Shown piece by piece: positions 2,295-47,114 of a stretch of DNA of 64,000 bases. Below the pieces are notes generated by a model. It saw only the letters and a list, made by a program, of their open reading frames with translations. It made no database searches and had not been told where the DNA came from. The stretch covers positions 32,001-96,000 of the IMG/VR virus record IMGVR_UViG_3300028887_000070; one strand, 5' to 3'. The stretch's first letter is position 1. Each line of letters opens with the position of its first letter. The translations under genes were made by a program, and so were the position numbers. The DNA is from a virus. Its lineage: Duplodnaviria > Caudoviricetes.

Positions 2295-3980
2295 ATGCCT
2301 ACTAGCAAGAGAGGTTATGAAATAGACTTATCTCATGAAGGTGCATACACTACTGGAGATAAGACTATATACGATGGTGCTGACCATACTGCTGAAGTGG
2401 ATCTGATCATCGGAGCCCTTGATGAACAGAGGAAACAGAATGTCGATAACCAGGCACTGGATCCTATCATCGGAAAAGCTCCAGAGATGAGAGGAAGATA
2501 TGATGGTTTTGCAGCTAATGTGAACCCGTTAGAAGCTGAGAGAATCACTGAAATGGATGAGATGGGAGCTCTCACTAGTGGAATAGTGAAGGGACTTCTC
2601 AGAAACCCAGACGGTATGTCCATAGAGGATCTCGACTACTTCACAAGAATACAGAAAGCAAATGCACAATACGATAAGGAGGACATGGCAATGGCCGAAA
2701 TGGAACAGAACATCCAGAACCAGATCAATGCTCAGGGATATGATACTATGGAGGGCTATATGGAAGCCAGCATAATGGCTGACCTTGGCAAAGTAGAATC
2801 AAGAATCCGTGATGCTGAAGATCCTAACGCAGCAATAGTTGAACCAGACGTAGAGGAGGTAAAGGAGGAAGAGTCCGAAGTGTTTCCTGCAGAAGCAGTC
2901 AACGCTGAAGCTACTGAGTATACTCCTGAAGTCGACACTGTTGAGAGTCTTGGCGAAGCTGTTCAGATGAATGATGATATGGAACCTGTAAAGGTTGCTG
3001 AAGAACAGAGCGCTCCTATAACAGATGAAGAGCTCGAGGACGTTCCCGTATCTACACTCGAAGTTACAGATGAACAGGTTCTTACAAACATGCATAATAT
3101 TGTCGGCGATGCGATCTCGGACAATGATGCTATGGCTCTTGTAGACATTATGAGACGTTATAAGTCAGGAGAGAAGTTCTCTGTATTCAATGCACTTCCT
3201 GAGACTATCAAGCTGCAGATCCGTAAGGCTGCTTCTGAGACTGGTGAAACACCCAGACATGCAATACTCGAGTTCTTCGCCAAGAACCTTATCAATGATA
3301 TCATCTCTGATGCTTTCATGAGCACTGAGATCAATAACTTCCAGGAAGAGTTAAACACATATGCTAAAGCTGCAGGTAATGTAACTGGTGTTATCGTTGA
3401 CTCTTATACTGATGAAGTAAAGGAGAAGTTCGAGACTGGTCTTCTTGAGACTGCTGACAAGATTCAGGAGTCTAATCCTGAGAAAGCAGAAGAGCTCAGA
3501 GAGATCGCTAAGTACTTTTGTTACACTCACACACTCGAACTCATCAAGAAGCACATCGAGAATGGTGGAGACACCTATCTTAACCGCTGCTATAAGAAGT
3601 CTCGTAAGATCAAGCAGTACACAGCATCCTTCAATGCTTACTATGAAGGTACTGTACCGAAGATCAGAGACATCGAATCACTCGCTATTCCATTCCGTCA
3701 GTTAATGGTGGATGAAGAGGTAGCCGAGACACTCGTAGTAATGCTTGGTGATTCTTGCTACGAACAGCCTAAGGGCTCGCTCGTAGGAAATGTCTATGCA
3801 TTCTATCTTCTCACTGGTGTAATGAATATCGCTATGTCTGCTGATACTAGTGATACTATCCGTGAGATCAGAAACAACATCGCTATCCTCGTATCAGAAG
3901 TCCGTCAGTTCCTCAACAGAAGAATGAAAGACTCCAAGTACGGTGGCAAAAAGAAGAAGGGTAAGAAGGGGAAGCGTTAA
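2295..3980 (+). CDS. Hypothetical protein with acidic disordered N-half and Lys-rich C-tail
   Basis: 561-aa ORF, AAGGAGG RBS, followed by a hairpin at ~3968-3989. Confidence 0.8.
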   Translation: MPTSKRGYEIDLSHEGAYTTGDKTIYDGADHTAEVDLIIGALDEQRKQNVDNQALDPIIGKAPEMRGRYDGFAANVNPLEAERITEMDEMGALTSGIVKGLLRNPDGMSIEDLDYFTRIQKANAQYDKEDMAMAEMEQNIQNQINAQGYDTMEGYMEASIMADLGKVESRIRDAEDPNAAIVEPDVEEVKEEESEVFPAEAVNAEATEYTPEVDTVESLGEAVQMNDDMEPVKVAEEQSAPITDEELEDVPVSTLEVTDEQVLTNMHNIVGDAISDNDAMALVDIMRRYKSGEKFSVFNALPETIKLQIRKAASETGETPRHAILEFFAKNLINDIISDAFMSTEINNFQEELNTYAKAAGNVTGVIVDSYTDEVKEKFETGLLETADKIQESNPEKAEELREIAKYFCYTHTLELIKKHIENGGDTYLNRCYKKSRKIKQYTASFNAYYEGTVPKIRDIESLAIPFRQLMVDEEVAETLVVMLGDSCYEQPKGSLVGNVYAFYLLTGVMNIAMSADTSDTIREIRNNIAILVSEVRQFLNRRMKDSKYGGKKKKGKKGKR

Positions 3981-6075: not shown

Positions 6076-7620
6076 TTACTGCATAGCAACAACATGGTTC
6101 TTAACCACGATATGATTGGAGCAAATCTTATCGAATCCCTCATTGTGAGAGATTACCATAAGTGTGCTATGGCACTCACGGTTAATAAGATCGATAGCTC
6201 TATTTCTGTTTCTGTCGTCGAGGTTGCTAGTAACTTCGTCCAAGATGAAGATCTTGTTCGGGTTACGTCTCATCTCAACTACTGTTCTTGTAAGCAGAAC
6301 GCGCTGCTTAAGTCCAGTGGAGAGATTGAAACCCTTTGAGCCAACTGGACAGTCAAGAAGCTTGTCGATCTCTACAGGAACGCCTTCAACTCTGAAAGTG
6401 TTTCTAAGATCGTTAAGCATATCGAGTTCCTCAAAGATCTTGATGATCTCTTCATCGGTAACAGTCTCGTCACCAAATGTAACATTGTTTCTGAGACTAT
6501 CATTCAGAAGAGTTGTCTCCTGGAATACATAGTATGTATCCAGATTTTCTGGGAGACCAAAGATCTCTTCAGACTTAATCGCGCCAGCAATGAGATTACC
6601 GAAGCTTGACTTGCCCTCACCAGACGCACCAGTGATAAGATATCTTTCACAGCGTCTGATACTGATGTTGTTCACAGTGAACTGAGCGCTGTCCTTCCCA
6701 TAATCGAAAGAGCCAGATACTGTGAACTGAGAAGGCATAGAAACCTTCTCATCGTTATCGTTGCCTTCGAGAGCTTCAATCTGCTTGGTAGCAGCCTTGA
6801 TCTTCGAAGTGTATGCAACGATATCGATACACTTGAAGATCGAATTGTAGATCACGTATTCATTGATAAATACGTAACCCAAAGTTTCAACATCCCATCT
6901 AAAGAAGTATGCAATGAAACATACAGGGACATAAGAGACAGCCTGGCACAAACCGAACCAGGCACGCTTCTTAGTATTGGTGCTATACTTATATGAGTCA
7001 TCTGCTGCATCGGTGACTCTGTTAAATAAGTAAGAGAACTTACTAGCGTACTTGAGAGTAAGTAAGTTCTCAAGGCCATCAACAAGAACTGACTCAAGCT
7101 TAGCAGCAGCCTTGTGTTCGTTCTCGTTGAACTTGAACTTTTCGTTGCCCCATAAGTACATAGCAGAGCTAAGTACGAAGCAGCTGAAAAGGATGGCTAT
7201 AGATGCAATGGAAGTACGGATCTTCCATATCATAATAGCCATAGGAAGAATACAACTGAAGCATGATACGATTGTCACGTATCTCTGTCCAGTGTATTCA
7301 GAGATCTTATTGATACTGTCGATGATAGTACCAACAGAGATCTTATTGATACTCTTAGTCTCAGACCAAGCCGACTTCTCAGTCAGTCTAGTCTTAAGAT
7401 CAAAGTATACTGTTGAGCTGGCCTTACGACCAGCTGCATCTCTCGCTGTATCGAGAACGGCGAAAGATACATTGCAAATGATGAGACCGATAAACAATCT
7501 CTTACTGAATCCATTAGCAATGAGCTTTGATATTACTGTAGCGTTGGCAGTGTTCTGTAAGCCAACAAGAATTGTTAAAACCACCATTGAGATAGTGAGC
7601 ATAGTTACCTTCTTCTTCAT
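6076..7620 (-). CDS. ABC exporter, fused transmembrane + ATP-binding domain
   Basis: Multiple TM helices, Walker A GASGEGKS, Q-loop VFQE, signature LSTGLKQR, Walker B IFILDEVTSNLD, H-loop ISH. Confidence 0.92.
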   Translation of the reverse strand: MKKKVTMLTISMVVLTILVGLQNTANATVISKLIANGFSKRLFIGLIICNVSFAVLDTARDAAGRKASSTVYFDLKTRLTEKSAWSETKSINKISVGTIIDSINKISEYTGQRYVTIVSCFSCILPMAIMIWKIRTSIASIAILFSCFVLSSAMYLWGNEKFKFNENEHKAAAKLESVLVDGLENLLTLKYASKFSYLFNRVTDAADDSYKYSTNTKKRAWFGLCQAVSYVPVCFIAYFFRWDVETLGYVFINEYVIYNSIFKCIDIVAYTSKIKAATKQIEALEGNDNDEKVSMPSQFTVSGSFDYGKDSAQFTVNNISIRRCERYLITGASGEGKSSFGNLIAGAIKSEEIFGLPENLDTYYVFQETTLLNDSLRNNVTFGDETVTDEEIIKIFEELDMLNDLRNTFRVEGVPVEIDKLLDCPVGSKGFNLSTGLKQRVLLTRTVVEMRRNPNKIFILDEVTSNLDDRNRNRAIDLINRECHSTLMVISHNEGFDKICSNHIVVKNHVVAMQ

Positions 7621-25540: not shown

Positions 25541-26098
25541 ATGAACATCGTAAGAAAAAAGTGTATGCTCATTACACCTTGTAACGTAACATTCAAGATC
25601 TCAAGTGGTAAAGAGCTTAAGCCTAACACAAAGAGCATCGAGTTCGTATGGACTAAAGAGATACTCATCGCTATGAATAGTGGTATCAGAGTATTTGAGA
25701 TTGGTTCAGACGGCAAGCAGGTTCAGCTTGATAAGAGCAACTTCGACAAAATCAACGTTCTCATGGACTATCCTTCAGAGGAAAAGATAGAAGAGAAAAA
25801 AGAAGAGACTGTTGAAGAGGAAGCTCCAAAGGTTGAAGAGTCTGTAGCTGCTCCTACTCCTGTTGAAGCTCCAGTAGAGGAGCCTAAGGAAGAGCCTACT
25901 CCTGAAGAGACAGTAGATCCTGCAGAGGAGGAATCACCTTCTGAAGAAGATTACGAACCCGAAGATGAGACTACTGAAGAAGAGATCGACATGACACCTC
26001 AGGAAGATCCTGAAGCTAAGTACTATCAGAATGACTCTGAGGATGATTGTGACGAAGAGAAGCAAGACAACGAAGACGACGAGTTCAACGTTGACTGA
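25541..26098 (+). CDS. Hypothetical protein with Glu/Pro-rich disordered tail
   Basis: GGAGG RBS; folded N-terminal ~75 aa. Confidence 0.75.
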   Translation: MNIVRKKCMLITPCNVTFKISSGKELKPNTKSIEFVWTKEILIAMNSGIRVFEIGSDGKQVQLDKSNFDKINVLMDYPSEEKIEEKKEETVEEEAPKVEESVAAPTPVEAPVEEPKEEPTPEETVDPAEEESPSEEDYEPEDETTEEEIDMTPQEDPEAKYYQNDSEDDCDEEKQDNEDDEFNVD

Positions 26099-26128
26099 TA
26101 AGAAACAATGCGTTTCTCGAAAAAGGAT

Positions 26129-26152
26129 GCTGGGTCCATGTGCGGACCCAGC
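26129..26152 (-). terminator. Terminator of the micropeptide transcript (possibly bidirectional)
   Basis: gctgggtcc/ggacccagc stem with a U-tract on the minus strand. Confidence 0.7.
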
Positions 26153-26244
26153 CTATTCTCTGTGTGTGACGAGATAAATATAGTTTTCGAACAAGTCATG
26201 TAGCAGTACTAATTACACGACTCGGCTTTTAAGACTTGGCACTC

Positions 26245-26280
26245 TTAGTAAGAACCGCCGCAAGTTTCAAAATCGTCCAT
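26245..26280 (-). CDS. 11-aa micropeptide MDDFETCGGSY
   Basis: Perfect GAAAGGAGGTG RBS at correct spacing; own early promoter (26376-26385) and terminator. Confidence 0.5.
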   Translation of the reverse strand: MDDFETCGGSY

Positions 26281-26437
26281 GTGTCACACCTCCTTTCTGT
26301 GGCTCATACACTCTAAAGGAGACAAGGAGTGTACAAGATCTGCTATTATCTATATCTTTAAACGCAGACATTTTAATAATATATAGCCCTAAACACGTAG
26401 TTTAACGACGGTAGGATTTCCCTACCGTCGATTCAAA

Positions 26438-28144
26438 CTAGAACACTGGGTCAATAGGCTTGAATGATGGATCAGGCTGTATAGTGAGACTATAGAGGTT
26501 CATAATGCACTCCTTTGTGACGTTACGAGGACTTATACCGTCCATACCTATAAGGTTGATCTTACTGTCAGCAGCCTTCTCAAGTTCAGCATTAGCTTCG
26601 AGAGTATAGATACCCTTAACGATAGCAGTATCACCATCGAAGTCCATACCCATTACATCTATATTACCGTTAGAGATAGTAAGAGTAGGAGAAAACAGAG
26701 CAGCAGTGTTTCTACCAAGGTCTTCTGTTCTGATCTTAGGCCACCATCTATAGACTTTACCATCCATCATGATAGGCTCAGTCTCATTGGTAGACTTGAT
26801 GTTTATCTTAGATGGATACTGGTTGAGGTATCTGTCTATAGGGAATCTAGTTATCAGACACATCTTATCTGCTGTCATCTCACATGCCGCAAGATAGAAG
26901 AGATCACACCAAGTCATAGGCCTTTCTATGAGAGGATAACCTGAATAGTCTTTTTGATCCATGATATGCTCTGATGGTACTTTTCTTCCTTTGAAGAAGA
27001 TACACATCTTGTTGACATCGAGATCGAGCTTCTTCTCTTTTATAGTCTTTGTGAGTTCTGTTTTGTCTATAGGAATAGGTATAGGCTGGAAACGATTAGA
27101 ATAACCATGAACGAATCTCTCTATCTGTTTCACTATCTCTGTATCAGAGAACATGATCTGATAGTCTTCTATAGGAATAGCAGTCTCTACACCTTTCTTA
27201 TCCACTACAGGATACATAGTCTTACCACCGAACTCGTTCTCGAAGAAACGACGACAATAGTAGATGATGAATGGCTGGAAGAGTACTATAGCTGCCTCAA
27301 GAGGACATGCAGCATGATCCATATCGACCATGAGATCTTCAATGTTCTCCACCTTCAGGTTAGCAGCAGACATAACAAGACGTACACTATAGTCTACTGT
27401 CTTGTACATTACACCCTTCTTTACGATACCCATCTTTCCAGGAAGGTTACCGCTAGTCTCTTCACCATTGATTACAGTTCCAGCACCAAACCAATCGTAG
27501 ATCTGTTTTAGTGTAGCCTGTATTCTTCCCTTTGTAGCGTCTGCAAGACTTAGTCCATACTCAGCGGTCTCTTTAAGAGCCTTTGTAGCAATGATGAGAG
27601 AGCTATAGAGTTTGTTGATCTCTCCTACACCTATACTAGCTTGCTTAGTATCAACGTCTCTATAGTATGGTGGGATTACAGGACACTTCTTAACCCACAT
27701 CTGTCCCTTTACCTTCTCAAGGAACTTGATCTTGGTAGCACGATCTTTAGAACTAGACTCTTTAGCAGACCAATCTATCTTATCATAGTTTGCTTTGAAC
27801 CAGTTTAGGCCAGTAGAGCCATTAGGATCTTTAACAAGTTGTCCCTTAGCATCGATAGAGAAGTTCTCTGAGCCATGTACTATAGCTTCTACTTTCTTAT
27901 CAAGAGTACAGAGTGTTTTATAGACTAGAGGATTGAGGAACCATCCACCAAGATCTATGTATGCATAGATACCAGCTCTCTCAGCTTTAGTGATTCCGAA
28001 GATCTCGTTAGACAGAAGTCCATCTGGTGCTGGTGTTGGACCGTTAAAGAAGACAGGGTTGGTGATCTCTTTACAGTCGTTAACTTTGACGAAACGCTCT
28101 ACATCAAGTATACTTATATCGAAATGATTAGTTGACGAACTCAT
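26438..28144 (-). CDS. rpoC: Multisubunit RNA polymerase beta' N-terminal subunit (probably virion RNAP)
   Basis: PDGLLSNEIFG, PVIPPYYRD, GKMG...KTVDYSVRLV, ITRFPI and catalytic MDFDGD; late promoter 28170-28181. Confidence 0.9.
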   Translation of the reverse strand: MSSSTNHFDISILDVERFVKVNDCKEITNPVFFNGPTPAPDGLLSNEIFGITKAERAGIYAYIDLGGWFLNPLVYKTLCTLDKKVEAIVHGSENFSIDAKGQLVKDPNGSTGLNWFKANYDKIDWSAKESSSKDRATKIKFLEKVKGQMWVKKCPVIPPYYRDVDTKQASIGVGEINKLYSSLIIATKALKETAEYGLSLADATKGRIQATLKQIYDWFGAGTVINGEETSGNLPGKMGIVKKGVMYKTVDYSVRLVMSAANLKVENIEDLMVDMDHAACPLEAAIVLFQPFIIYYCRRFFENEFGGKTMYPVVDKKGVETAIPIEDYQIMFSDTEIVKQIERFVHGYSNRFQPIPIPIDKTELTKTIKEKKLDLDVNKMCIFFKGRKVPSEHIMDQKDYSGYPLIERPMTWCDLFYLAACEMTADKMCLITRFPIDRYLNQYPSKINIKSTNETEPIMMDGKVYRWWPKIRTEDLGRNTAALFSPTLTISNGNIDVMGMDFDGDTAIVKGIYTLEANAELEKAADSKINLIGMDGISPRNVTKECIMNLYSLTIQPDPSFKPIDPVF

Positions 28145-45560: not shown

Positions 45561-47114
45561 CTATGCAACCTTAGGCTCAAGATCGAGACAAGCCTGAATA
45601 TCATCGAGATCATTCTGATCATAAGCATCCATAGACAGATTAACAAAGCTGTTGAGACAGATGAGATTGTTAGTCTGAAGAGATACATTAGTCTCAAACA
45701 GACCAGTGTTTCTGGAGATCTGTCCAACGTAACGTGGGTTGAATACTTCCATACATGCCTTGAGGAACTCCTGATTGATGATGTACATACAGTTCAGAGT
45801 ATCGCCATCGAAGTCTGCATTGAGTCCAGAGAGGATCTCAAGTGGCAGGGACATAGCATATGAATCGAAGTGGATTCCTACTACCTGCATCTGAAGAACT
45901 GACAGAGACCAGATAGACGGATTACGATTGATAAGTACTCCGACATACTCGGAGTTAACTATGTTCATCATAATGTCATAGATCTCTCTGCTTGGATTGA
46001 TAGTTGCCATGAACCACTTCTGATATGCAATGTGACGAGGCATAGTCTTTGAGAGGATATTAACTATTCTGAACTCAAGGAGTTCTACCATAGTTGCATA
46101 TGGAAGTATAACCTGATCTATCTCAAGATCACTATTCGGAACGATTACCGATCTAGCACAGAAGTTATATCTACCACCTATAGTAGAACGTACAAGTCCC
46201 TTCTTATGAGAGAGCTGCTTCTCGAGATCTGCATAGATCTCCATCCACTTAGACTGCATTCTATATAGGATCTGTTTAGCAGGCTTACCAGTACGTCTAG
46301 AGACAAGCTGGTTACGATTGACTCTTGTAGCCTGAGCTGCAAGTATATTGTATAGAGAGTTGTTACCGTCAAAGTTGAACTGACTGTCGTCAAGATTGAA
46401 CGGTCTCAACTGTGTAGTGTATACAGGAATAGAGTGAGTGAACACAATGTCCTTATACTTCATGATGTGTTCATAGTACTCCATCTTCTCTGGTTTCTTA
46501 ACATGTTTGTTTCTATAGAACTCCATGATCTCGTCAAAGCGATCACGGAATGCAAGTATACCCAATCCTACGAATGGGCTACTCTTACTAGGCTTCACCT
46601 CAATAGGTTTACCATCTACATCTATCTTATCATCATTGTCTATGATTGCATCAAACTCCTTAGCACCAATGAATGCAGAGATAGACTTGAACATATTAGG
46701 ATGAATCAGACAATACTTCTCGTCTATACAGATCCATCCAAACTTCTCGAAGTCATCACCCATATAGTCTACAGGCTGATGACAGAACTCACAGATCTGT
46801 CCATAGTGCAATCTACCATTGAGATGATTACACTTGCATCTGTAACGGTTAGAGTATGCATCCTGATCATTCAGTGTGGGACCGAAGAATGAAGAGAAGA
46901 TACTCTTGTCTGACTTAAGGTCTTTCTTGATATCCTGACGCTTCTCGATGATCATACCTTTGCCTCTCATAAGGTCAGCTTCTCTTTCTTTATCAAGGTC
47001 TATTAGTTCAAGAGACGTCTCATATCTATACTGTTGTCTTGTTTTGGGATTTGATGATACGGGTATTACGGAAAGAGTTGTCCTCTTTTCGTATCTTTGG
47101 TAGTCGCTTAACAT
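45561..47114 (-). CDS. rpoC: Non-virion RNA polymerase beta' N-terminal subunit (AR9 gp270-like)
   Basis: Zn ribbon CKC...CEFC, FGWI, IPVY...LRP, KKGLVR....GRYNFCARSVI, INRNPS and catalytic LNADFDGD. Confidence 0.92.
   Translation of the reverse strand: MLSDYQRYEKRTTLSVIPVSSNPKTRQQYRYETSLELIDLDKEREADLMRGKGMIIEKRQDIKKDLKSDKSIFSSFFGPTLNDQDAYSNRYRCKCNHLNGRLHYGQICEFCHQPVDYMGDDFEKFGWICIDEKYCLIHPNMFKSISAFIGAKEFDAIIDNDDKIDVDGKPIEVKPSKSSPFVGLGILAFRDRFDEIMEFYRNKHVKKPEKMEYYEHIMKYKDIVFTHSIPVYTTQLRPFNLDDSQFNFDGNNSLYNILAAQATRVNRNQLVSRRTGKPAKQILYRMQSKWMEIYADLEKQLSHKKGLVRSTIGGRYNFCARSVIVPNSDLEIDQVILPYATMVELLEFRIVNILSKTMPRHIAYQKWFMATINPSREIYDIMMNIVNSEYVGVLINRNPSIWSLSVLQMQVVGIHFDSYAMSLPLEILSGLNADFDGDTLNCMYIINQEFLKACMEVFNPRYVGQISRNTGLFETNVSLQTNNLICLNSFVNLSMDAYDQNDLDDIQACLDLEPKVA

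What the first reader, a model, noticed from the sequence alone, without database searches (positions are those of the whole stretch)
26120..26410. Self-contained early transcript encoding an 11-aa peptide (MDDFETCGGSY) under a pseudoknot-locked RBS
Seen on the minus strand, in order: a perfect early promoter (26376-26385); hairpin tctgc/gcaga; an 11-bp stem (26303-26337) whose loop carries UCUCCUUU, complementary to the immediately following GAAAGGAG SD (H-type pseudoknot); the 12-codon ORF (26245-26280); a 3' hairpin plus GUCACAC (26164-26170) able to pair with GUGUGAC after the SD; and a terminator. Established: SD-sequestering pseudoknots occur in translational riboswitches (preQ1-II, SAM-II), and a Cys five residues from the C-terminus (C-X4) is the ring size of agr thiolactone peptides. 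Inference: a regulated micropeptide that could be a quorum-sensing mimic, phage signal or enzyme inhibitor, or a dual-function sRNA. It is a strong candidate for an undescribed system, possibly linked to the early ABC exporter.
Basis: partly seen in the sequence, partly recalled or inferred. Interest (0 to 1): 0.8.

Follow-up and report, generated by a model that had tools for sequence, protein, structure and literature searches.

The report
Jumbo-phage micropeptide captured by hosts
A giant gut phage carries a tiny, conserved early gene for an 11-residue peptide beside its virion RNA polymerase gene, and Ruminococcus hosts have taken up whole relatives of this gene, five times into CRISPR arrays and once as a chromosomal cassette, which suggests that bacteria borrow the phage's own peptide as a defence.

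Summary
The unit is real: an AR9-type early promoter, folded leader, strong ribosome-binding site, 11-codon ORF and terminator, just behind the virion RNA polymerase beta' N-subunit gene of an AR9-like jumbo phage. It belongs to an undescribed family of mostly 9-14-residue peptides found in 38 related phage loci, under clear purifying selection (24 synonymous vs 4 amino-acid-changing substitutions). The pseudoknot is limited to one sub-lineage. Thiolactone/agr, riboswitch and an obligatory ABC-exporter link are not supported. Unexpectedly, the native DjCas13d arrays of Ruminococcus sp. UBA7013 hold five over-long spacers (54-130 nt), each carrying an entire family member (SD, start, ORF, stop) in the sense orientation, which cannot target the phage mRNA. 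A second species of the genus has inserted a promoter-driven tandem pair of these ORFs, recoded synonymously. A complex prediction weakly supports peptide binding to the neighbouring polymerase subunit (0.53 vs control 0.01). Best reading (about 0.45): an inhibitor of virion polymerase (early shut-off, superinfection exclusion) that hosts co-opt as immunity. Function is untested, only two host MAGs show capture, and neither holds this window's variant.

The parts
26438..28144 (-). Virion RNA polymerase beta' N-terminal subunit (568 aa, AR9 gp145 homologue); conserved upstream neighbour and candidate binding partner
   Evidence: PHROG 2986; best AR9 match is g145, annotated as virion RNAP subunit; weak complex prediction with the peptide
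26406..26430 (-). Hairpin closing the beta' gene (present in the window's sub-lineage only; many relatives have the promoter directly after the beta' stop)
   Evidence: sequence; relatives
26369..26385 (-). Early (virion-RNAP) promoter; predicted +1 G at 26369
   Evidence: AR9 consensus with 6-nt spacing (PMC5312081); genome-wide motif sites; kept in relatives
26338..26369 (-). 5' hairpin at the transcript start
   Evidence: leader fold; same position with different sequence in 10 relatives
26303..26337 (-). 11-bp stem with 13-nt loop carrying the anti-SD (26324-26315); potential H-type pseudoknot with the SD; sub-lineage feature
   Evidence: 9-10-nt unpaired anti-SD in window, L013, L001, L004, L005, L019, L022, L015; weak in L016, L017, L026; absent in most others
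26288..26298 (-). Strong Shine-Dalgarno sequence
   Evidence: SD core nearly invariant in 30-37 aligned members
26245..26280 (-). Micropeptide ORF, 11 aa (MDDFETCGGSY); family core: acidic N-terminus, then acid-[T/G]-hydrophobic-G
   Evidence: 24 synonymous vs 4 non-synonymous single-base codon changes in disjoint pairs; ATG/GTG/TTG start exchange
26238..26259 (-). Hairpin pairing the last codons with the 3' UTR across the stop codon
   Evidence: seen in most relatives, mean z = -1.6; per-locus test not significant
26192..26223 (-). Additional 3' hairpin (window lineage only)
   Evidence: absent from L001-type relatives
26164..26170 (-). 3' heptamer complementary to the SD-start spacer (26289-26283)
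   Evidence: pairing kept with changed sequence in the 9-locus sub-lineage (summed length 51 vs shuffle mean 38.9, max 46 of 500), not in the other 17
26120..26152 (-). Intrinsic terminator, also scored on the opposite strand (shared with the convergent gene)
25541..26098 (+). Convergent gene with acidic tail (185 aa, no family); conserved downstream neighbour

Best explanation
The injected virion RNA polymerase transcribes a compact ~250-nt mRNA from +1 at 26369 (inferred from the AR9 consensus). It is translated into a ~10-residue acidic, Gly-containing peptide (shown by selection on codons, not by proteomics). In this sub-lineage the anti-SD loop and the 3' pairing damp or delay initiation (inferred). 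The peptide most likely binds the virion RNA polymerase, whose beta'N gene it has stayed beside across the clade, and inhibits it. This would help turn early transcription down and block the polymerase of a later, related phage (superinfection exclusion) (inferred). Because pre-made peptide would stop infection at its first step, Ruminococcus hosts gain from expressing it. They have kept whole copies as sense-strand long spacers in Cas13d arrays, probably captured from ribosome-protected RNA, and as a promoter-driven chromosomal cassette with two variants (capture shown; benefit inferred).
For: Family in all 26 rows of a 100/100-supported beta'N clade, directly behind beta'N, and beside it in inverted orientation in three more distant genomes. 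Purifying selection 24:4, expected synonymous share 0.22-0.27, p about 1e-10. Five of 29 spacers in two DjCas13d arrays are 54-130 nt (23 ordinary ones are 25-34 nt); each holds SD, ORF and stop in crRNA sense; they come from two distant phage lineages and encode five different peptides. No other spacer of these arrays matched 21 jumbo-phage records convincingly. Host cassette in G064: a ~255-nt insertion absent from a sister genome (97% identity in the flanking protein), with a sigma-A promoter, two tandem ORFs and a terminator; one peptide is identical to phage L078's with 5 synonymous and 0 non-synonymous changes, shifted towards the host's preferred Gly codon. Complex prediction beta'N + peptide: score 0.53, best control 0.01, runs agree in at least 80% of contacts, partner pLDDT at least 62; the mark was reached by 58 of 80 solved and 2 of 110 mismatched pairs, but at 0.60 or under by only 7 solved complexes and both mismatches. 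Most AR9 early transcripts decline after 20 min, and one rose under chloramphenicol for unknown reasons (PMC5312081).
Against: No experiment shows expression, binding, inhibition or protection. The complex pass is weak and outside the tool's calibration (peptide under 30 aa). Capture is seen in only two MAGs among about 230 host genomes screened, and neither holds the window's own variant. The host of the window's phage is inferred from its place in the same subclade as L017/L026. Cultured relatives (AR9, BpSp, LPJP1, S6) gave no match, so the AR9 kinetics need not involve such a peptide. In nucleus-forming jumbo phages early transcription happens inside a vesicle (PMC13282480), which could shield the polymerase. 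Rapid peptide change beside a slowly evolving polymerase fits an arms-race target at least as well.
Confidence: 0.45

Rival explanations
1. The peptide is an intracellular 'already infected' signal or exclusion factor acting on another target (a phage receptor or injection protein, or a host protein the phage needs). Hosts co-opt it for the same protective effect.
For: Explains host capture and domestication equally well. Lineage-specific variants, and hosts collecting several variants, suggest kin specificity. Gly-rich cores recall arbitrium peptides (from memory, not tested).
Against: No signal peptide, no AimR-like receptor, exporter not required. Does not explain the fixed position beside beta'N or the weak polymerase-binding prediction.
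Confidence: 0.25
2. The peptide is an accessory or assembly factor of the virion polymerase (for example a trans-acting sigma-finger-like piece). The CRISPR copies are neutral records of the most abundant, ribosome-protected phage RNA, and host expression is incidental or dominant-negative.
For: In many relatives no hairpin separates beta'N from the unit, so late read-through would co-express them. The virion RNAP has no known sigma or assembly subunit (PMC5312081). The host sigma-A finger reads E-T-P-I-G followed by acidic residues, loosely like the family core. Three spacers start exactly 4 nt before the SD core, as expected for RNA trimmed up to a bound ribosome.
Against: An early promoter is odd for a virion component. 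Neutral capture does not explain 5 of 5 sense orientation when Cas13 would favour antisense, nor the recoded, promoter-driven tandem cassette in G064. Cultured relatives lack a detectable copy.
Confidence: 0.13
3. The peptide is an anti-defence factor (for example against Cas13d, a toxin-antitoxin pair or an abortive system). Hosts keep it to limit their own autoimmunity or toxicity.
For: Early, strong expression and fast change are typical of anti-defence genes; copies sit in a Cas13d locus next to a viperin gene.
Against: G064 holds the cassette although no Cas13d was found in it (MAG incomplete). Deep synteny with a core gene is unusual for anti-defence genes, and hosts would lose immunity.
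Confidence: 0.1
4. One reading: an agr-like thiolactone or exported quorum mimic under a ligand-sensing pseudoknot riboswitch, secreted by the phage ABC exporter.
For: Anti-SD loop and Cys at -5 in the window; the ABC exporter was found only in carrier genomes.
Against: Cys not conserved; no AgrB; no Rfam match; no conserved leader nucleotides; pseudoknot absent in most members; exporter missing from five near-complete carriers.
Confidence: 0.03

Closest known systems
Small phage proteins and peptides that bind RNA polymerase (T7 gp2, Xp10 P7, P23-45 gp39/gp76; lasso peptide microcin J25) - from memory
   Same: Very small RNAP-binding inhibitors used to switch or block transcription; the proposed mode of action.
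   Different: Those target host RNAP and are far longer or post-translationally knotted; here a ~10-aa linear peptide is proposed to target the phage's own virion RNAP. No sequence relation was shown.
Arbitrium AimP peptides (PMC8612738, PMC13220667)
   Same: Short, lineage-specific phage peptides that report prior infection.
   Different: AimP is a secreted precursor with an AimR receptor in temperate phages; here no signal peptide, no AimR, and an AR9-like phage.
Superinfection-exclusion genes kept by hosts on prophage remnants (from memory)
   Same: Host gains immunity by expressing a phage gene.
   Different: Those are ordinary-size prophage genes. Here a ~55-nt gene from a lytic-type jumbo phage is stored as CRISPR spacers or as a small recoded cassette.
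Type VI CRISPR adaptation, including RT-Cas1 capture of RNA (PMC11662929)
   Same: Spacers can derive from RNA; repeat-flanked integration.
   Different: Reported spacers are about 34 bp with no bias to abundant transcripts or one strand. Here 54-130-nt whole genes, all sense, with a 321-aa Cas1 that has no RT fusion.
CreTA mini-ORF RNAs in CRISPR loci (from memory); the SiL-E1 pseudo-spacer of Sulfolobus (as named in note e1-5335161, not checked)
   Same: SD-led mini-ORF or gene-bearing DNA inside a CRISPR locus.
   Different: CreT is a host toxin RNA that acts by tRNA sequestration; SiL-E1 is a single insertion. Neither is repeated capture of one phage gene family.
preQ1-II and SAM-II riboswitches; type I toxin mRNAs
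   Same: SD sequestered by a loop or by 5'-3' pairing.
   Different: No Rfam match, no conserved ligand pocket, no metabolic gene; the peptide is acidic, not hydrophobic, and no antisense partner was seen.

Membership tests
agr autoinducing peptide (AgrD/AIP) | Conserved Cys (or Ser) that closes a five-residue ring | tested here: not met
   Position holds Met, Ile, Val, Tyr, Phe or Cys across relatives; many members have no Cys
agr autoinducing peptide (AgrD/AIP) | AgrB peptidase; precursor with leader and tail | tested here: not met
   PF04647 not found in G000; ORF is 11 aa with no leader. Host AgrB not tested.
SD-sequestering riboswitch (preQ1-II, SAM-II) | Match to the covariance model; conserved ligand-binding nucleotides | tested here: not met
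   No Rfam hit; stems vary freely
SD-sequestering riboswitch (preQ1-II, SAM-II) | Ligand-dependent switching | not testable with these tools
   Needs in-line probing
Arbitrium (AimP) | Signal-peptide precursor and AimR receptor | tested here: not met
   NF038310 not found in G000; no hydrophobic leader in any member
RiPP precursor | Co-encoded modifying enzyme or peptidase-exporter | tested here: not met
   No radical SAM or C39 in G000; ABC exporter has no peptidase domain and is missing from five near-complete carriers. YcaO and LanC not searched.
Type I toxin-antitoxin toxin | Hydrophobic membrane peptide with an antisense RNA | tested here: not met
   Peptides are acidic and Gly-rich, about 10 aa; antisense transcription itself could not be tested
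Phage RNAP-binding inhibitor | Binds RNA polymerase | tested here: inconclusive
   Weak predicted support, 0.53 vs best control 0.01
Phage RNAP-binding inhibitor | Inhibits transcription | not testable with these tools
   Needs purified virion RNAP
Canonical Cas13d spacer | About 30 nt and complementary to the target RNA | tested here: not met
   Micro-gene spacers are 54-130 nt and sense; ordinary spacers in these and four other VI-D arrays are 25-35 nt

The most novel reading that the evidence does not exclude
Gut jumbo phages use a ~10-residue peptide to shut down their own virion RNA polymerase and exclude superinfecting kin. Ruminococcus turns this against them by storing whole, translatable copies of the micro-gene, captured from phage RNA, in a Cas13d CRISPR array. 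The array would then work as an adaptive library of inhibitory peptides rather than of guide RNAs, and such genes can later be domesticated as chromosomal cassettes.
Probability: 0.35. Interest if true: 0.97.

Novelty: categorically new. Interest (0 to 1): 0.88.

Why it matters
It gives an overlooked, deeply conserved gene next to the least understood enzyme of jumbo phages, the virion RNA polymerase, for which the AR9 study found no encoded assembly or specificity subunit (PMC5312081). A 10-mer that can be synthesised makes early shut-off and superinfection exclusion in these phages directly testable. The host side may be a new form of acquired immunity: CRISPR arrays holding whole expressed genes in the non-targeting orientation. 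The arrays belong to the native locus of DjCas13d, a Cas13d enzyme used as a tool (contig DJXD01000002, PMC12481013), so processing and translation of the natural array can be tested in E. coli at once. The spacer ends also point to RNA-derived acquisition by a VI-D system without an RT-Cas1 fusion.

Tried and rejected
Rfam, ARAGORN and blastn against isolated phages: nothing. No second copy in the window's genome. AgrB, radical SAM, C39 and AimR not found. ABC exporter: in G000 and 8 of 38 related records, all carriers, but missing from near-complete carriers G003, G007, G012, G014 and G015, so not required. The idea that the peptide is a missing piece of beta' could not be tested, because PF04983 found no match in the genome. 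RNA runs: four RNA libraries hold a relative, but only as contigs; one 257-nt contig spans just the intergenic unit, yet it starts upstream of the promoter and DNA carry-over is not excluded, so it is no evidence of transcription. The stop-codon hairpin is frequent but my per-locus statistic did not separate it from shuffles. The codon-likeness test for ordinary spacer orientation was not significant in UBA7013 (13:9) and was 9:1 antisense in two other VI-D arrays; orientation therefore rests on the repeat polarity and the leader promoter. Other Cas13d arrays (G071, G076, G184, G489 and the P0167 locus) had no long or SD-bearing sense spacers. A pattern scan of 185,579 genomes for repeat + SD + start found only UBA7013. 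Host screens with the sequence models scored only 37-113 of about 1,000 candidates per genome, so absence is not shown; the other hits were ordinary gene starts. AR9, BpSp, LPJP1 and S6: no match, with no positive control in that call. Literature searches found no description of the family or of peptide-coding spacers (open-access library only). The pair-count tool call failed on a length error and was not repeated.

Full report
Setting. The window is part of a 231,846-bp virus record related to AR9/PBS1-type jumbo phages. The element lies on the minus strand between a 568-aa RNA polymerase beta' fragment (26438-28144) and a convergent 185-aa gene. The beta' fragment matches AR9 g145, annotated as the virion RNAP beta' N-terminus. 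A second beta' fragment at 45561-47114 is probably the non-virion one.

Observation. The promoter matches the AR9 early consensus including the six-base spacing to a +1 G, here 26369 (PMC5312081). The core motif occurs 13 times in the genome, mostly in front of genes. There is no Rfam or tRNA match.

The ORF is a real, conserved gene. Loci gathered through the beta' protein show the same unit (promoter, SD, short ORF, terminator) at beta' identities from 99% down to about 45%. All 26 rows of a 100/100-supported clade carry it directly behind beta'N. Eight more members came from pattern and model searches: one directly behind beta'N, three beside it in inverted orientation, one beside the acidic neighbour gene, three elsewhere. 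Peptides are mostly 9-14 aa (two of 22, one of 29), with an acidic N-terminus and an acid-[T/G]-hydrophobic-G core. Starts vary among ATG, GTG and TTG. In eight disjoint pairs, single-base codon changes are 24 synonymous to 4 non-synonymous against an expected synonymous share of 0.22-0.27 (p about 1e-10). Caveat: in some pairs I compared only the alignable N-terminal codons, which favours conservation. One pair (L040, L041) has five synonymous and no amino-acid changes over the whole ORF.

The RNA structure is secondary. The hairpin with an unpaired 9-10-nt anti-SD loop is kept, with different stem sequences, in the window's close relatives and L015. It is weak in L016, L017 and L026 and absent from most others. 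Pairing of the SD-start spacer with the 3' UTR is significant in this sub-lineage, with a compensatory change between L017 and L026, but not in the other 17 loci. Other lineages use a coupled upstream mini-ORF (L040-L042) or little more than a hairpin. So SD occlusion is a lineage-specific way to tune translation (inference), not a ligand-binding riboswitch. The Cys is not conserved, and AgrB, C39, radical SAM and AimR are not found. The ABC exporter (6076-7620) occurs only in carriers but is missing from at least five near-complete ones.

Host capture in CRISPR arrays. A pattern scan of host genomes hit Ruminococcus sp. UBA7013. Its two type VI-D arrays (cas13d, cas1, cas2 and a viperin gene on L114) belong to the source genome of DjCas13d (PMC12481013). 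Of 29 measured spacers, 23 are 25-34 nt, one unrelated spacer is 53 nt, and five are 54, 57, 75, 85 and 130 nt. Each of the five holds the SD, start, full ORF and stop of a family member. Two are 97-99% identical to phage loci L017 and L026, which lie in the same 10-row subclade as the window. Three match the L078 type over their first 40-50 nt and differ in the last codons. All five read in the same sense as the crRNA, judged by repeat polarity and a sigma-A promoter in the leader, so they cannot guide Cas13d to the phage mRNA. In 21 jumbo-phage records no other spacer matched convincingly. Five random hits on one such gene in one orientation would have a probability near 1e-14 (rough estimate). 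Three spacers begin exactly 4 nt before the SD core, and the 3' ends fall at the stop codon, just after the stop hairpin or in the terminator stem. This is what RNase J trimming up to an SD-bound ribosome would leave (from memory: the STAB-SD effect), so capture from RNA is plausible although Cas1 has no RT fusion. In one case the stop codon is completed by an altered first base of the next repeat.

Host domestication. A sequence model found a second case in G064, in the same genus. It has a sigma-A promoter, two tandem SD-led ORFs and a terminator, inserted as about 255 nt upstream of a DUF4317 gene and absent at that site from sister genome G062. One peptide is identical to that of phage L078 with five synonymous changes. 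The other differs by one residue from a UBA7013 spacer peptide, again with five synonymous changes. The changes move towards the host's preferred Gly codon. Selection in the host therefore appears to act on the peptide, which neutral recording of an abundant RNA cannot explain. The gene is ancient and syntenic in phages and rare in hosts, so the likely direction is phage to host (inference).

Mechanism. Shown: architecture, conservation, coding selection, host capture. Inferred: early expression, and benefit to the host. A phage product that helps the phage when made after entry and helps the host when made before entry is most simply an exclusion factor or an inhibitor of the first step of infection. 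That step is transcription by the injected virion RNAP (PMC5312081). The gene's position points to this enzyme. A complex prediction of beta'N with the window's peptide scored 0.53 against a best control of 0.01; the runs agree in at least 80% of contacts and the partner pLDDT is at least 62. The tool rates this weak: the mark was reached by 58 of 80 solved and 2 of 110 mismatched pairs, but at 0.60 or under by only 7 solved complexes and both mismatches, and peptides under 30 aa were not calibrated. I put virion-RNAP inhibition at 0.45, exclusion through another target at 0.25, an accessory polymerase factor at 0.13, anti-defence at 0.10 and the agr/riboswitch reading at 0.03. That the ORF is a selected, translated gene I put at about 0.95.

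Novelty and limits. No paper in the searchable library describes the family or peptide-coding spacers. The reported VI-B RT-Cas1 acquisition shows no strand or expression bias, and VI-A spacers were about 34 bp (PMC11662929). Earlier scan notes did not cover this family. One describes a multi-copy 17-residue acidic micropeptide gene in another cattle-gut jumbo phage (not compared here), and one a single gene-bearing giant spacer in an archaeon. The host evidence comes from two metagenome-assembled genomes, the screens were insensitive, other Cas13d arrays were ordinary, and neither host holds the window's own variant.

Noticed in passing
window 6076-7620 (-); L105-L112: Stand-alone ABC exporter (membrane + ATPase, no peptidase domain) behind an early-type promoter. 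Found in 9 related phage records at varying sites, and only 45% identical between two phages whose beta' is 92% identical to the window's. Substrate unknown.
   Followed up: partly
L040-L042 ~3290-3365; L036 ~3340-3490; L058 ~3280-3345: A second mini-ORF upstream of the family ORF; in L040-L042 and L058 its stop overlaps the family start codon (translational coupling in place of the pseudoknot).
   Followed up: no
L044, L045, L078: ~60-100 nt downstream of the family ORF: An extra SD-led 4-codon ORF before the terminator.
   Followed up: no
L004 4861-4929; L005 4862-4930; L223 ~1510-1610: Longer variants (22, 22 and 29 aa) with the same N-terminal core; useful for folding or pull-down work.
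   Followed up: no
L114 369-1235 and 5430-5482: A prokaryotic viperin gene directly upstream of DjCas13d; also one 53-nt spacer unrelated to the micro-gene, showing that this system tolerates long spacers.
   Followed up: no
L115 351-1480: Second DjCas13d-type array with its own leader promoter and no cas genes nearby; it shares a near-identical ordinary spacer with the L114 array.
   Followed up: partly
L194-L203: A Cas13d locus with no cas1/cas2 called nearby, with two repeat types in one array and an identical spacer set in several samples; one ordinary spacer reads as the antisense of an SD region.
   Followed up: no
L055, L068 after the beta'N match: Intron-like interruptions of the virion beta'N gene near the catalytic motif, as in AR9 g145.
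   Followed up: no
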